DNA from: Candidatus Haladaptatiplasma halalkaliphilum
GTDB lineage: Archaea > Thermoplasmatota > Thermoplasmata > Halarchaeoplasmatales > Halarchaeoplasmataceae
Assembly (NCBI GenBank): GCA_019594055.1
Contig: JAFDTY010000003.1
Span: 1 to 45,109 of the forward strand
Reading direction: 5' to 3'
Length of the DNA stretch: 45,109 nt
Part shown: in pieces, positions 6,602 through 10,372 of the stretch
Numbering within the stretch: position 1 is the stretch's first letter
Layout: every line of letters begins with the position of its first letter
Program-made: the position numbers and the translations under genes
Notes under the pieces: model-generated
The model's input: only the letters and a program-made list of their open reading frames with translations
Databases searched by the model: none
Told to the model about the DNA's origin: nothing

Positions 6602-6997
6602 ATGGCAGAACTTCAGGTTGTAATAGCTGACCCAAAAGAAGGTAAGAGCTACCAGACGAAAGTGGAAAAGACCCATTTAGCCAGATTGGTGGGGCTAAGA
6701 ATAGGTGACGAGATAGATGGCATATTCGTGGGTCTTCCGGGTTACAAACTGGTCATCACCGGTGGCAGTGACATAGATGGATTCCCCATGAAAAAGGGAA
6801 TACCTGGGCCCGGTAGGAAGAAGATAATGGGGAAGGGAGGCATAGGATTCAAGTCCAATCCCAACAACATCAGAATGAAAAAGATGGTAAGGGGTAATAC
6901 CATCTCGCAAAATATCGCCCAATTGAACATGAAGGTGACGGAGTACGGCCCCAGAAATATTCCTGACCTTTTTGAGAGTGGGAAGGGAGATAACTGA
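6602..6997 (+). CDS. rps6e: 30S ribosomal protein S6e
   Basis: LVGLRIGDEIDG, GYKLVITGGSDIDGFPM, VRGNTIS and QLN motifs. ATG 6602 is the likely start rather than 6539. Confidence 0.96.
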   Translation: MAELQVVIADPKEGKSYQTKVEKTHLARLVGLRIGDEIDGIFVGLPGYKLVITGGSDIDGFPMKKGIPGPGRKKIMGKGGIGFKSNPNNIRMKKMVRGNTISQNIAQLNMKVTEYGPRNIPDLFESGKGDN

Positions 6998-8229
6998 TGA
7001 TCGTTCCGGAACAGCCTGAGATCAATATAGGGCTGGTGGGTCATGTCGACCATGGAAAGACAACACTTACAAAGGCACTCAGCGGAGAGTGGACGGACAG
7101 GCATTCGGAGGAAACGAAAAGAGGCATCAGCATCAGACTCGGGTATGCGGATGCAGCGTTTTTCAAATGTCCCCTGTGCCAGGGTAGCGAAGCCTACACC
7201 ACACTCGGTAAATGTATAGTTCATGATACGGAAACCAAATATTTGAGGTCTGTTTCGTTCGTGGACTCGCCTGGTCACGAAACCCTCATGGCGACCATGC
7301 TGTCGGGCGCATCCATGATGGACGGTGCTCTTCTCATAATAGGTGCAAACGAAGTCTGCCCCCAACCTCAGACCCAGGAGCATCTCATGGGTCTTGACAT
7401 ATCCGATGTTAACAACATCATCATAGTACAAAATAAGATAGACCTGGTAACTTCGACACGAGCCAAGGAAAATTACAATGAGATAAGGAATTTCATCCGG
7501 GGGACCATAGCAGAGGGTGCACCCATAATCCCCGTATCGGCACACCATGACGTTAACATAGATGCCTTGATCCATGCCATAGAGGAATACATTCCGTCAA
7601 AAGATATTGACAAGTCACAAAGTCCTCTGATGGCCATCGCCAGGTCCTTCGACATCAACCAACCGGGCATCCCCATCAAAAATATGAAAGGGGGTGTCGT
7701 GGGCGGTTGTCTCGTGCGGGGCGTACTGAAGGTAGGAGACGAGGTCGAGATCGCCCCCGGTTACAGGGTCGAATCCGGTGGTGAATCCGGTTGGGGGCGG
7801 TACATAACGACGGTCACATCTCTAACATCCGGTCAGTTTAGTCTTGACGAGGTGAGGCCCGGCGGACTGATTGGCGTGGGCACCAACCTTGACCCCGTGA
7901 TAACCAAGGCGGATTCACTGGCCGGCCACGTACTCGGGTATCCGGGAGAATTACCTCCTATCCTCGAGGAATTTGAAATGGAAACACATTTACTCAAAAG
8001 GGTGGTGGGGGTAGATAGTAACATAGAGGTTGAAAACATTAAAACTCGTGAACCTTTGATGCTCACCGTAGGTACCGCAACCACCGTTGGAGTTGTCAAT
8101 TCCGCAAGAGATGGAGAGGCGTCGGTTAAACTGAAGAGGGCGGTGTGTGCAAATAGTGGCCAAAGGATCGCAATAAGCAGGCGGATCTCCGGCAAGTGGC
8201 ATCTGTTGGGTTACGGCGTCATCAAATAA
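6997..8229 (+). CDS. eif2g: Translation initiation factor aIF2 gamma subunit
   Basis: GHVDHGKT, RGISIRLGYAD, zinc-knuckle cysteines, DSPGHE and NKID. Confidence 0.97.
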   Translation: MIVPEQPEINIGLVGHVDHGKTTLTKALSGEWTDRHSEETKRGISIRLGYADAAFFKCPLCQGSEAYTTLGKCIVHDTETKYLRSVSFVDSPGHETLMATMLSGASMMDGALLIIGANEVCPQPQTQEHLMGLDISDVNNIIIVQNKIDLVTSTRAKENYNEIRNFIRGTIAEGAPIIPVSAHHDVNIDALIHAIEEYIPSKDIDKSQSPLMAIARSFDINQPGIPIKNMKGGVVGGCLVRGVLKVGDEVEIAPGYRVESGGESGWGRYITTVTSLTSGQFSLDEVRPGGLIGVGTNLDPVITKADSLAGHVLGYPGELPPILEEFEMETHLLKRVVGVDSNIEVENIKTREPLMLTVGTATTVGVVNSARDGEASVKLKRAVCANSGQRIAISRRISGKWHLLGYGVIK

Positions 8230-8271
8230 ACGCATACCAAAAGTTTACGGTTTATAAAATCTTCTAATTAA

Positions 8272-8290
8272 CGTATAATAAAGGTAAAAA
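8272..8290 (-). terminator. U-rich terminator of the 5S rRNA gene
   Basis: Minus strand reads TTTTTACCTTTTATTATAC directly after the 3' strand of helix I. Confidence 0.6.
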
Positions 8291-8523
8291 GAGCAACTGA
8301 CAGCGGGCCAGGGACTGAAAATGGCCTTCAAGCAGTTAGGTTTACCTTTCCCCCCGTAGGGAGCGAGGCTCCTAACCTAAACCATCAGTCCAGGGATCCG
8401 TAAAGGATCTAAGCTTCCCATGGGCTCGCGCACCATAGTACAACGGAGAACGCGGGTGGGCTTAACTGCTGGGTTCGGGATGGGACCAGGTGTTTCACCA
8501 CCGCTATGGCCGTCATGTTGCTC
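8291..8523 (-). rRNA. rrf: 5S rRNA with an insertion of about 100 nt (core 8298-8515)
   Basis: Minus strand: UGACGGCCAUAGCGGUGGUGAAACACCUGGUCCCAUCCCGAACCCAGCAGUUAAGCCCACCCGCG...GUACUAUGGUGCGCGAGCCCAUGGGAAGC contains the 5S signatures GGCCAUAGC, CCCAU.CCGAAC, GUUAAGC and a GCGA-capped helix IV. The ends pair (GAGCAAC-A-UGACGGC with GCUGUCA-GUUGCUC). Confidence 0.93.
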
Positions 8524-8543: not shown

Positions 8544-8560
8544 GGTATATATTTCTTTTG
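8544..8560 (-). promoter_or_regulatory. BRE/TATA promoter of the 5S rRNA gene
   Basis: Minus strand CAAAAGAAA TATATAC, with the TATA about 23-28 nt upstream of 8523. Confidence 0.7.
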
Positions 8561-8728
8561 ATTCATTGGTCGGAAGGGACACACTAAGATTCCAAGCCTT
8601 GTCGGTATAAATAACCCGTAATTTTGCCGATTTACTCCCAAGATAATGCTTTATGGGTGATAATGTCTCATATATTACCCCGCAAAAGGTATTATTACAC
8701 AAGCCCTTTACACCCTAAAGTTGGTTAT

Positions 8729-10372
8729 ATGATATCTGTGACGGTATATGGCGGAGCGAACGAGATAGGCGGTAACAAGATACTTTTGGAATTCCAGGGG
8801 ACGAGGATTATGCTGGACTTCGGTAGTAGGATGGGTTTTGATTCAAGATTTTTTTCGGAATTCGTCAATCCCAGGACGAATACCGGGCTCAGGGACAGGT
8901 TGATCATGGGTTCCCTACCTATGATACCCGGTATATACCGCGAAGACTTGATCAGACCGTCGGGTTTGGACGGACTGCCGGAAGAAGGAAGACTGCTGGA
9001 AAAGGATTCGCCCATGCTGGACCTCGACGGACTGATAACATACGAAGAATACCTCTCCCGTTGGGGTAAGGGATACATCGACGGCATACTCCTCTCCCAC
9101 GCACATCTCGATCACACGGGGGATATCACCCACATCCACCCGGACATACCGGTTTACTGCAGCAGTATCACCAAGACACTTGTGGACGCCATCGACCAGG
9201 TGACCGCTTTTAAAACTTACGCACTGGAAATGAAAAGACCTGAGATAACATACTCCGTCAGGGGCATGTTCCCGGGAAGCCCAAAATTGGAAAAGAAAAA
9301 TGTTAGCCGGAGGGACTGCATCACAACCAGTGAGAATACCCTGGGGAATGTGTATTTTGAACTGATAGATGTTGACCACTCGGTGCCCGGTGCATGCAGC
9401 TTTCTGATAAAAAATGGGAAACGTAAGATACTGTACACGGGGGATATCAGGTTCCACGGGACCTCCCGGATATCCGTGGAGCACTATGCACGTCGGGCAG
9501 GCGATAAGATCGATATGATGATATGCGAGGGTACCCGGGTGGACTCGGGATCGGTGATCACCGAGGAGATGGTTTGCCAGGACATCGCATGTGATATACG
9601 AAGTACAAAGGGTGTGGTTTTCGTGGACTTCAGTTGGAAGGATACGACCCGCTTCGAAACGATAAGACGGGCGGCAATGGAAAACAACAGGATATTTGTT
9701 ATCAACGGCAGACTGGCATACATCCTTCGGAAACTGGGTTTGTTCCCGGATGATGACTCCGTGAGGGTATTCCTAAAACGCTCAGGTAGCGCACTGTATT
9801 CTCCCAATGATTACACCAGAAGTAAACACGAGCTCGGGTTCATATCGGACCATGACGAGCTGGATACCACCCATTACCAAAAGGGTATCACCGCATCCCA
9901 GATCACGGAAGCGCCCGGAAAGTATGTACTCATGATGTCTTATTACGATTTCAACCAACTGTTCGACTTTGCGGACGAAAACGGTAAGATACGGAATTCA
10001 CTTTTCATAAAGGCACAGTGTGAGCCCTTCTGCGACGATATGGAGATCGACGAGGAGCGCTTGATAAACTGGCTCGAATTGTTCGGTATAGGGTTCAGGG
10101 AGGGAGAACCCGATATAAACCCGAACTGCACGGACCACGACTGTTCGAAGATAAAGCGGTGCGTGCAACGTTCTCACGTTTCGGGGCATGCGTCAAGGCC
10201 CGAACTCAAGGAGTTGATAAAAAGACTTAAACCGGATGTGCTGATACCCGTTCATACACTGTATCCCCATGAATTCTCGAGGATAGCCGAAGAGATAGAG
10301 GAGGAGGACGGCCACGGTATCCGTGTGGTGATCCCCGAGACAGGGGTTGAATACACGTTCGGAGATGAATGA
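8729..10372 (+). CDS. Metallo-beta-lactamase / beta-CASP ribonuclease (RNase J-like)
   Basis: GGANEIGGN, LDFG, SHAHLDH, VDHS, YTGD, CEGT, HVSGHA and IPVHT. ATG 8729 gives the family-typical N-terminus. Confidence 0.85.
   Translation: MISVTVYGGANEIGGNKILLEFQGTRIMLDFGSRMGFDSRFFSEFVNPRTNTGLRDRLIMGSLPMIPGIYREDLIRPSGLDGLPEEGRLLEKDSPMLDLDGLITYEEYLSRWGKGYIDGILLSHAHLDHTGDITHIHPDIPVYCSSITKTLVDAIDQVTAFKTYALEMKRPEITYSVRGMFPGSPKLEKKNVSRRDCITTSENTLGNVYFELIDVDHSVPGACSFLIKNGKRKILYTGDIRFHGTSRISVEHYARRAGDKIDMMICEGTRVDSGSVITEEMVCQDIACDIRSTKGVVFVDFSWKDTTRFETIRRAAMENNRIFVINGRLAYILRKLGLFPDDDSVRVFLKRSGSALYSPNDYTRSKHELGFISDHDELDTTHYQKGITASQITEAPGKYVLMMSYYDFNQLFDFADENGKIRNSLFIKAQCEPFCDDMEIDEERLINWLELFGIGFREGEPDINPNCTDHDCSKIKRCVQRSHVSGHASRPELKELIKRLKPDVLIPVHTLYPHEFSRIAEEIEEEDGHGIRVVIPETGVEYTFGDE

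What the first reader, a model, noticed from the sequence alone, without database searches (positions are those of the whole stretch)
8291..8523. 5S rRNA nearly doubled in length by a structured insertion of about 100 nt
Seen: the first 103 nt (8515 to 8413) are a canonical archaeal 5S. Where about 15 nt should remain, 115 nt follow before helix I closes. The extra sequence folds by eye into a small hairpin (GAUCC/GGAUC, 8395-8409) and an 80-nt irregular hairpin (GGACUGA/UCAGUCC, UGGUUU/AGGCCA, GUUAGG/CCUAAC, 8312-8391) capped by a cUACGg UNCG tetraloop. G-U pairs and the tetraloop favour selection as minus-strand RNA. The gene has its own BRE/TATA and U-tract. Known: 5S is normally about 120 nt, and Halococcus morrhuae 5S carries a 108-nt insertion in its 3' region. 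Inference: this is an independent expansion segment at a similar position in a probable Thermoplasmatota lineage, where I know of no example.
Basis: partly seen in the sequence, partly recalled or inferred. Interest (0 to 1): 0.9.

Follow-up and report, generated by a model that had tools for sequence, protein, structure and literature searches.

The report
Doubled 5S rRNA in uncultured archaea
This archaeon's only 5S ribosomal RNA gene carries a conserved, folded extra module of about 100 bases at the same spot as the one known archaeal case (Halococcus), and the same module occurs in many uncultured relatives, where routine annotation hides it.

Summary
On the minus strand, 8523-8291 is a 5S rRNA gene. 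Its helix I closes 218 nt after it opens (UGACGGC 8515-8509 with GCUGUCA 8304-8298), against 116-118 nt in relatives with a normal gene. The extra ~101 nt form a 5-bp hairpin (8409-8395) and an ~80-nt irregular arm (8391-8312) capped by cUACGg.

It is the only 5S hit in this genome. It is also the only hit in two single-contig relatives. The same insert, at the same site, is in 89 of 153 genomes of the phylum whose locus I read (20 of 51 family codes). That sample is biased towards low Rfam scores.

In the insert, 17 of 18 modelled pairs show compensatory changes, and one internal loop is nearly invariant. Two independent DNA assemblies bridge the junctions. Two metatranscriptome contigs of a relative span core plus insert, with no joined (excised) form.

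The site, size and two-arm shape match the Halococcus expansion, but a covariance model and alignment find no sequence homology with it. Two genera contain one species with the insert and one exactly without it.

Best reading: a retained expansion segment. It is a new member of a known kind. I found no description in the papers searched.

The parts
8546..8560 (-). Putative archaeal promoter: A-rich BRE-like stretch followed by the TATA-like AAATATATA (8554-8546), centred about 27 nt upstream of G8523
   Evidence: Read. Inferred from the usual archaeal TATA spacing (my own knowledge). Not tested.
8291..8523 (-). Whole expanded 5S rRNA gene, including the outer helix (233 nt). From inner helix I strand to strand it is 8515-8298 (218 nt).
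   Evidence: Helix I pairs its 5' strand with the far 3' strand and covaries: 3 of 9 pairs have changes on both sides.
8410..8515 (-). Canonical 5S core: helix I 5' strand, helices II-III with loop C, helices IV-V with loop E, and the helix V 3' strand CUUAG
   Evidence: RF00001 scores 79.8 bits against a cut-off of 38. The core helices are 96.7-99.8% paired in 70 sequences. Helix V pair col 77-114 is U-A in 60 and C-G in 10, so 70 of 70 pair.
8395..8409 (-). Short arm of the insert: 5-bp hairpin GAUCC/GGAUC with loop UUUAC
   Evidence: All 4 modelled pairs show changes on both sides across 79 sequences (helix 1).
8312..8391 (-). Long arm of the insert. It is unbranched with three to four helices, a nearly invariant asymmetric internal loop (5' YUA / 3' GYUUKAAN) and a cUACGg tip.
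   Evidence: In helices 2-4, 13 of 14 pairs show changes on both sides. Loop composition is: A 76/79, G 79/79, G 78/79.
8298..8311 (-). Linker CCCUGGCCC with a conserved GG (8307-8306), followed by the helix I 3' strand GCUGUCA (8304-8298)
   Evidence: Columns 244-245 of A1 are G in 66/70 and 70/70 sequences.
8286..8290 (-). T5 run directly after the gene, a likely archaeal terminator
   Evidence: Read. Inference only, not tested.

Best explanation
This is the organism's working 5S rRNA gene. It carries a retained expansion segment of about 101 nt, inserted into the junction-proximal part of the helix V 3' strand, next to loop A.

Shown: the insert folds on its own into two arms. One is a short hairpin. 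The other is a long unbranched helix with a nearly invariant asymmetric internal loop and a UNCG-type tip. The five canonical helices are left intact.

Shown: the module is old, is inherited along with the families, and is under selection as RNA structure in many uncultured relatives in the window's phylum.

Inferred: by analogy with Halococcus morrhuae, the three-way junction becomes a four- or five-way junction. The arms then project from the solvent side of the central protuberance without disturbing the uL5 and uL18 contacts.

Inferred and untested: the conserved internal loop is the functional part, most likely a docking site for a protein or for another part of the ribosome.
For: 1. Only copy. 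There is 1 RF00001 hit in G000, which is 90% complete. There is 1 hit each in the single-contig genomes G080 and G171, and both are expanded.

2. Conservation. Helix I strand spacing is bimodal: 116-118 nt or 211-227 nt. The insert is in 36 of 37 genomes of the window's order that have a 5S hit. The 37th is cut by a contig end.

3. Structure, full gene. On A1 (70 sequences) 53 pairs are 97.5% paired and 28 have changes on both sides. None of 500 shuffles reaches the observed score, and slid controls score at most 0.104 against 0.387.

4. Structure, insert only. On A3 (79 sequences) 18 pairs are 93.4% paired and 17 have changes on both sides. The covariation score is 0.795, against 0.279 for shuffles (0/500) and at most 0.147 when slid.

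5. Vertical descent. In a tree of 85 expanded genes every family code forms one clade. That is 19 label changes, the minimum possible, reached by 0 of 200 shuffles.

6. Not a chimera. DNA contigs from two other runs match with 0 differences: X2 over 8250-8492 and X3 over 8250-8472.

7. RNA. Metatranscriptome contigs X9 (211 nt, 8302-8512, depth 45.7) and X10 (208 nt, 8303-8510, depth 27.7) cover core plus insert without gaps. No joint was reported.

8. Precedent. The Halococcus 108-nt insert at the equivalent site is retained and was seen on the large subunit (PMC7530397).
Against: - The RNA evidence is thin. It consists of assembled contigs from two runs of one study, from a relative with 14 differences. 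Contigs cannot show ends, strand or level, and DNA carry-over cannot be excluded.
- No ribosome-bound RNA was seen.
- A3 is fitted to the model's structure, which favours pairing counts.
- In two genera, one species has the insert and a congener lacks it exactly. So the module is dispensable in some backgrounds and behaves like a discrete unit. This also fits an intron-like or mobile element.
- uL18 open frames do not differ between lineages with and without the insert, so no co-evolving partner was found.
- The function is pure inference.
Confidence: 0.85

Rival explanations
1. The ~100 nt are an intron-like or otherwise excised element. They are transcribed with the 5S but removed, or cut to leave a two-piece 5S, before the ribosome is assembled.
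For: There is exact presence or absence between congeners at orthologous loci. G238 against G233 reads ...GGGAAUUUUGG[101 nt]AUCGCUGUCC, and the 3' half of the core is identical. G193 against G223 is a second such pair. This pattern is typical of archaeal rRNA introns (my own knowledge). Stepanov and Fox also raise excision as a possibility for some expanded 5S genes (PMC7812874, passage).
Against: There is no conserved bulge-helix-bulge motif at the borders. A lenient scan (2-bp flanks, G-U allowed) finds some such motif in 16 of 85 sequences. These sit at inconsistent places, with none in the 36 sequences of the window's family and none in G238 or G193. Internal helices and an internal loop are conserved, with covariation, across 20 family codes; an intron needs only its borders. 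RNA-library contigs hold the unspliced form at depths of 46 and 28, and no joined form was reported. In Halococcus the equivalent insert stays in the ribosome.
Confidence: 0.07
2. This is a decaying or non-ribosomal 5S copy. The true 5S gene is simply missing from an incomplete metagenome-assembled genome.
For: G000 is 90% complete in 108 contigs, and rRNA genes are often left unassembled. Stepanov and Fox consider pseudogenisation for some bacterial expanded 5S genes.
Against: The two single-contig relatives have only the expanded gene. No normal archaeal 5S was found in any of the 37 genomes of the order that have a hit; the one extra hit, G014 C155, is a bacterial-type 5S on a 1.9-kb contig. 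The core is conserved and covaries. The insert itself is under structural selection.
Confidence: 0.03
3. Assembly chimera: a 5S core joined by mistake to unrelated sequence.
For: None beyond the general risk of chimeras in metagenome assemblies.
Against: The same architecture appears in 85 full-length sequences from separately assembled genomes. Contigs from two other sequencing runs bridge both junctions with 0 differences. The far 3' strand is the covarying partner of the helix I 5' strand.
Confidence: 0.01

Closest known systems
Halobacterial 5S rRNA expansion segment: the 108-nt insert of Halococcus morrhuae, also in Halalkalicoccus, Halomarina and Halodesulfurarchaeum (Luehrsen 1981 as cited; Stepanov and Fox 2021, PMC7812874; Tirumalai 2020, PMC7530397)
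   Same: Same site: the helix V 3' strand between loop E and the three-way junction. Same order of size: 108 nt against 94-110 nt here. Same shape: in the paper's words, an 'asymmetric V' with a short hairpin arm and a long unbranched arm of helices and internal loops. In both cases it is the only 5S type in the genome. A 231-nt haloarchaeal example from a metagenome (L228) shows the same layout.
   Different: There is no detectable sequence or profile similarity. Model R1 gives no plus-strand hit over the L228 insert and no hit in L198 or L228 at E <= 0.01. The best local alignment scores 21, against a shuffle mean of 21.3, and 119 of 200 shuffles do as well. The host phylum is different. The spread is far wider: 20 family codes against four genera. 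Here the most conserved part is the proximal internal loop, whereas the paper names the distal stem-loop.
Bacterial 5S expansion segments (Thermoanaerobacterium and others; Stepanov and Fox 2021)
   Same: Self-folding helical modules are added to an intact 5S core.
   Different: They sit at other sites, such as the helix III bulge, loop C and helix IV. They are usually one of several 5S copies alongside normal ones, and they are confined to a few strains (passages).
Archaeal rRNA and tRNA introns with bulge-helix-bulge borders
   Same: A discrete element at a fixed site in a stable RNA gene, exactly present or absent between close relatives.
   Different: There is no conserved bulge-helix-bulge motif. 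The internal structure is conserved. The unspliced form is present in RNA libraries.
Supersized rRNA expansion segments of Asgard archaea (Penev 2020, PMC7594248; seen only in the search listing)
   Same: Lineage-wide rRNA expansion in uncultured archaea, found from metagenomes.
   Different: Those are in the 23S rRNA. The 23S of this genome is 2915 nt against a 2987-position model, with no large insert.

Membership tests
5S rRNA (Rfam RF00001) | Match to the covariance model above the curated cut-off, with helices II-V, loop C and loop E | tested here: met
   79.8 bits against a cut-off of 38, covering model positions 1-120. The core helices are 96.7-99.8% paired in 70 relatives.
5S rRNA (Rfam RF00001) | Helix I formed by the two ends of the molecule | tested here: met
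   Rfam's own closure at 8398 has 3 non-pairs out of 9. The far closure (8515-8509 with 8304-8298, plus the outer 7 bp) is found by the fold. It is 97.1% paired, with changes on both sides at 3 of 9 pairs.
5S rRNA (Rfam RF00001) | It is the functional copy, meaning the only or main 5S of the genome | tested here: met
   There is 1 hit in G000. There is 1 hit in each of the single-contig genomes G080 and G171, and both are expanded.
Prokaryotic 5S expansion segment, halobacterial structural type | Insertion between loop E and the three-way junction (position 104.1/105; bacterial 108/109) | tested here: met
   The indel between G233 and G238 falls inside the proximal helix V 3' strand. Helix V pair col 77-114 lies before the insert, and a conserved GG follows it. 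The site is as described.
Prokaryotic 5S expansion segment, halobacterial structural type | Two-arm 'asymmetric V': a short hairpin plus a long unbranched arm | tested here: met
   Fold, consensus structure and covariation.
Prokaryotic 5S expansion segment, halobacterial structural type | Sequence homology with the Halococcus-type insert | tested here: not met
   Searches detect no similarity. The test is weak for old divergence: 3 of 6 distant inserts from the window's own phylum also fail by sequence alone. I therefore file this as the same kind, not the same family.
Prokaryotic 5S expansion segment, halobacterial structural type | Insert retained in the mature, ribosome-bound 5S | tested here: inconclusive
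   RNA-library contigs of 208 and 211 nt hold core plus insert, and no joint was reported. These are contigs from one study, of a relative. Ribosome binding cannot be tested with these tools.
Archaeal bulge-helix-bulge intron | A conserved bulge-helix-bulge motif that places both borders in 3-nt bulges | tested here: not met
   A lenient scan finds a motif in 16 of 85 sequences, at differing positions. None is in the window's family and none in the two species of the mixed genera that carry the insert.
Archaeal bulge-helix-bulge intron | Spliced (joined) RNA product | tested here: inconclusive
   No joints appear in the four runs laid. Contigs drop rare forms, so absence is not shown.
Kink-turn (L7Ae-binding motif) | Canonical stem, 3-nt bulge, tandem sheared G-A and A-G pairs | not tested
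   By eye, the loop 5' YUA / 3' GYUUKAAN has one possible G-A pair, a 4-nt bulge, and U where the second G should be. In 16 of 79 sequences the G is replaced by U. This is a lead only.

The most novel reading that the evidence does not exclude
The ~100-nt module is, or once was, a mobile RNA-level element that enters and leaves a single hotspot of the 5S gene with single-base precision. The same hotspot is used in Halobacteria. Its present spread would then reflect repeated exact gain or loss, for example through reverse-transcribed RNA or transfer of the segment, followed by domestication as a ribosomal expansion segment.

Three observations leave this open. Congeners exactly with and without the insert share an identical adjacent core. 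One species has a 26-nt two-hairpin stub at the same site (G210). The horizontal-transfer proposal for the halobacterial insert points the same way.
Probability: 0.12. Interest if true: 0.85.

Novelty: new member of a known kind. Interest (0 to 1): 0.66.

Why it matters
Large 5S rRNA expansions in archaea were known only from four haloarchaeal genera. The 2021 survey covered reference genomes and found no archaeal case outside the Halobacteria (passages of PMC7812874).

Here the same kind of expansion is the normal state in many uncultured lineages of another phylum, found in sediment and soda-lake samples. It is under clear structural selection. That makes a 'doubled' 5S a recurring, stable ribosome design rather than a curiosity.

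It also gives comparative depth that Halococcus never had: 85 sequences and a nearly invariant internal loop to test. The natural pairs of species with and without the insert allow its cost or benefit to be studied.

On the practical side, Rfam-based annotation calls a false 120-nt gene ending inside the insert. These genes are therefore mis-annotated in public genomes.

Tried and rejected
- **Copies of the insert elsewhere in the genome.** A search with 8306-8400 at E <= 10 returned only the insert itself.
- **Rfam on the insert alone.** Searching 8303-8402 at E <= 10 gave 0 matches.
- **Homology with the Halococcus insert.**
  - I could not reach a named Halococcus genome.
  - A plasmid search found haloarchaeal plasmid 5S genes, but none from Halococcus and none expanded.
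  - A metagenome pattern scan returned 80 loci, mostly bacterial false positives. A first helix-closure filter was too noisy. Ranking by similarity to a haloarchaeal 5S core found two 231-nt expanded genes, L198 and L228.
  - Model R1 and local alignment detect no similarity to these.
- **uL18 as a co-evolving partner.** Open frames around the PF17144 match are about 165-180 aa at the low end in lineages both with and without the insert. Examples are G000 168, G031 170 and G098 170 with the insert, against G036 173 and G037 169 without. These are stop-to-stop frames, so the measure is crude. No difference was seen.
- **A conserved neighbouring gene.** eIF2-gamma lies next to the 5S in 14 further loci of the window's family. 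The metallo-beta-lactamase/RMMBL nuclease gene upstream (8624-10372) is adjacent only in the window, among the loci numbered up to L040 and longer than 2 kb.
- **Large inserts in the 23S.** None found.
- **RNA runs.** The parts of the stretch without RNA-contig cover (8513-8523 and 8291-8301) say nothing about the ends of the RNA.
- **Kink-turn reading of the conserved loop.** Considered by eye only and not adopted.
- **Supplements of papers.** Not seen. Supplemental Fig. S6 of PMC7812874 (halobacterial insert structures) could bear on the homology question.
- **G132 (unpublished).** It was in the samples. I fetched nothing from it and rest no claim on it.
- **First submission.** One search was turned back because the confidence field was missing. 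This report is the same with that field added.

Full report
**What is there.** On the minus strand, 8523-8291 holds a 5S rRNA gene. Rfam RF00001 matches at 79.8 bits, but it ends the gene at 8398 by forcing a helix I with 3 non-pairs out of 9. The real closure is much further on. UGACGGC (8515-8509) pairs with GCUGUCA (8304-8298), and this is extended by GAGCAAC (8523-8517) with GUUGCUC (8297-8291) across one bulged A.

The minimum-free-energy fold recovers four elements:
- this far helix I;
- the canonical core;
- a 5-bp hairpin (8409-8395);
- an ~80-nt irregular arm (8391-8312) tipped by cUACGg.

The fold energy is -96.7 kcal/mol, z = -4.15, and 0 of 200 shuffles fold as well. A TATA-like AAATATATA lies about 27 nt upstream of G8523, and a T5 run follows the gene. 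Both were read and not tested.

**Is it the real 5S?** It is the only RF00001 hit in the window's genome, which is 90% complete in 108 contigs. The 23S gene lies on another contig and has no large insert: 2915 nt against 2987 model positions.

In the window's order, which has one family code and 44 genomes, 37 genomes have a 5S hit. All of these score 46.6-83.4 bits, apart from one bacterial-type contaminant on a 1.9-kb contig in G014. By comparison, normal archaeal 5S genes in other families of the class score 95-114 bits.

Reading the loci shows why. The distance between the helix I strands is bimodal: 116-118 nt or 211-227 nt. Of the 37 genomes of the order with a hit, 36 carry the insert. 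The 37th is cut by a contig end after 53 nt. Two single-contig genomes of another family code, G080 and G171, have one 5S hit each, and both are expanded.

**How widespread is it?** I read the 5S locus of 153 genomes of the phylum. I picked low-scoring hits preferentially, so these counts are not prevalences.
- The insert is present in 89 genomes and 20 of the 51 family codes read.
- Within the window's class it is in 11 of 28 family codes.
- In other classes it is in 9 of 23 family codes.

All of these inserts share the site, the two-arm layout and the sequence motifs (alignments A1 and A2). The nearest named relatives of the adjacent eIF2-gamma gene are 'Thermoplasmata archaeon' MAGs at 58-60% identity. 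Sequencing runs that hold the stretch are labelled soda lake, sediment and microbial mat metagenomes.

**Selection on structure.** On 70 full-length sequences (structure):
- 53 consensus pairs are 97.5% paired;
- 28 pairs have changes on both sides;
- 0 of 500 shuffles reach the observed values;
- sliding the partners drops the covariation score from 0.387 to at most 0.104;
- helix I covaries with the far 3' strand.

I then built a covariance model of the insert alone (R1, 81 sequences). It re-finds 79 of its 81 source loci at E <= 0.01. It gives no hit in 8 normal 5S loci. On the model-guided alignment, which leans towards the model's structure, the results are as follows:
- 18 pairs are 93.4% paired;
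- 17 pairs have changes on both sides;
- the covariation score is 0.795, against 0.279 for shuffles (0/500) and at most 0.147 when slid.

An asymmetric internal loop in the long arm is nearly invariant. Its 5' side is Y-U-A (A in 76/79) followed by a G present in 79/79. Its 3' side is G (78/79)-Y-U-U-K-A-A-N. This loop is the best candidate for a functional contact. I could not assign it to a known motif.

**Is it real DNA and real RNA?** Contigs from two other DNA runs match with 0 differences, X2 over 8250-8492 and X3 over 8250-8472. Both bridge the junctions, so the locus is not a chimera.

Two metatranscriptome runs of one study each hold one contig, 211 nt over 8302-8512 at depth 45.7 and 208 nt over 8303-8510 at depth 27.7. 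Each spans core plus insert without gaps, with 14 differences, so they come from a relative. No joint was reported in any run. These contigs lie wholly within the gene. That fits an abundant RNA of about 210 nt or more, but contigs cannot prove ends or exclude carried-over DNA.

**Exact site, and comparison with Halococcus.** Two species of one genus code, G233 and G238, have orthologous loci with an identical 3' half of the core. They differ by exactly 101 nt...GGGAAUUUUGG[insert]AUCGCUGUCC. The insert therefore sits inside the junction-proximal pairs of the helix V 3' strand.

In alignment A1, helix V pair col 77-114 (U-A in 60, C-G in 10) lies before the insert, and a conserved GG follows it.

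The Halococcus insert is 108 nt. [quoted passage not shown] That description fits the present insert.

To compare sequences I recovered two 231-nt haloarchaeal expanded 5S genes from metagenome contigs, L198 and L228. Their insert is 108 nt relative to a normal haloarchaeal gene. No similarity was detected:
- model R1 does not detect them;
- the best local alignment to the 81 inserts scores 21, against a shuffle mean of 21.3 (sd 2.0), and 119 of 200 shuffles do as well.

Three of six distant inserts from the window's own phylum also fail this sequence-only test. So independent origin is the simpler reading, but ancient homology is not excluded.

**Descent, gain and loss.** In a tree of 85 expanded genes every family code forms one clade. 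That is 19 label changes, the minimum possible, reached by 0 of 200 shuffles. The element therefore travels with its host lineages.

One family code, f44, is mixed. Of its 12 genomes read, 2 carry the insert (G193 and G238). Each has a congener with a normal gene (G223 and G233). The two inserts are each other's nearest relatives. Another species, G210, has only a 26-nt two-hairpin insert at the same site.

This requires either several exact losses or exact gains. A lenient scan finds no conserved bulge-helix-bulge motif: 16 of 85 sequences at inconsistent places, and none in the window's family. An ordinary archaeal intron is therefore unlikely, but a precise insertion or removal mechanism remains an open question.

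**Literature.** I ran five searches.
- 'Expanded 5S rRNA' occurs only in Stepanov and Fox 2021 and its preprint.
- That paper contains neither 'Thermoplasma' nor 'metagenom'. It reports expanded archaeal 5S genes only in Halobacteria.
- Papers holding '5S rRNA', 'Thermoplasmat' and 'expansion segment' do not describe such an insert. I read passages of PMC12918454 and PMC8339473. PMC8997704 and PMC8813620 I saw only in the listing.
- The listed Thermoprofundales (MBG-D) papers contain no '5S rRNA'.

I therefore found no prior description in the library searched. Subscription journals and supplements were not visible.

**Verdict.** This is a real, conserved and very probably retained 5S rRNA expansion segment. 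It is the same kind as the Halococcus one, at the same site and with the same shape, but without detectable homology. It is the normal state in a large set of uncultured archaea and is masked by a systematic annotation error. Its function is unknown. The conserved internal loop is the place to look.

Noticed in passing
window 8398-8517 (-): Rfam/Infernal reports a complete, untruncated 120-nt 5S that ends inside the insert, using a false helix I with 3 non-pairs. Standard pipelines will therefore mis-annotate every gene of this type as normal length.
   Followed up: yes
L124 (G233) and L125 (G238); L281 (G223) and L122 (G193): Two genus codes each contain one species with the ~101-nt insert and one exactly without it, at orthologous loci. 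In the G233/G238 pair the 3' half of the 5S core is identical.
   Followed up: partly
L136 (G210): A 5S gene with only about 26 extra nt at the same site (helix I strand spacing 142 nt), folding by eye into two small hairpins. It could be a deletion remnant or a separate small expansion. Model R1 does not hit it.
   Followed up: no
L228 about 476-706 and L198 (metagenome contigs): A 231-nt haloarchaeal-type expanded 5S gene whose 108-nt insert is flanked by a 5-nt direct repeat (AACUG), so the insertion point is ambiguous by 5 nt. No comparable flanking repeat is seen at the G238 borders.
   Followed up: partly
L005 (G014 contig C155, 1946 bp): A bacterial-type 5S gene (101.8 bits) on a very short contig in a genome of the window's family. 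Probably binning contamination.
   Followed up: no
window 6997-8229 (+) and 8624-10372 (+): The 5S lies tail to tail with eIF2-gamma, and this pairing is kept in 14 further loci of the family. The gene on the promoter side, a metallo-beta-lactamase / RMMBL RNA-specificity-domain protein, is adjacent only in the window.
   Followed up: partly
G000 contig C90 22508-25422: The 23S rRNA gene is on a different contig from the 5S, which suggests unlinked rRNA genes. It is 2915 nt, with no large insertion.
   Followed up: partly
L109 (G072, two copies): 5S hits in which only about 88 nt span model positions 1-120, and no helix I closure was found. Possibly degenerate or unusual 5S genes in that family code.
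   Followed up: no
L062 (G041 contig C91, first 30 nt): The 5' end of this expanded 5S gene is scrambled at the very start of the contig: a helix I-like string is followed by unrelated bases. This looks like an assembly-end artefact. The insert itself is intact.
   Followed up: no
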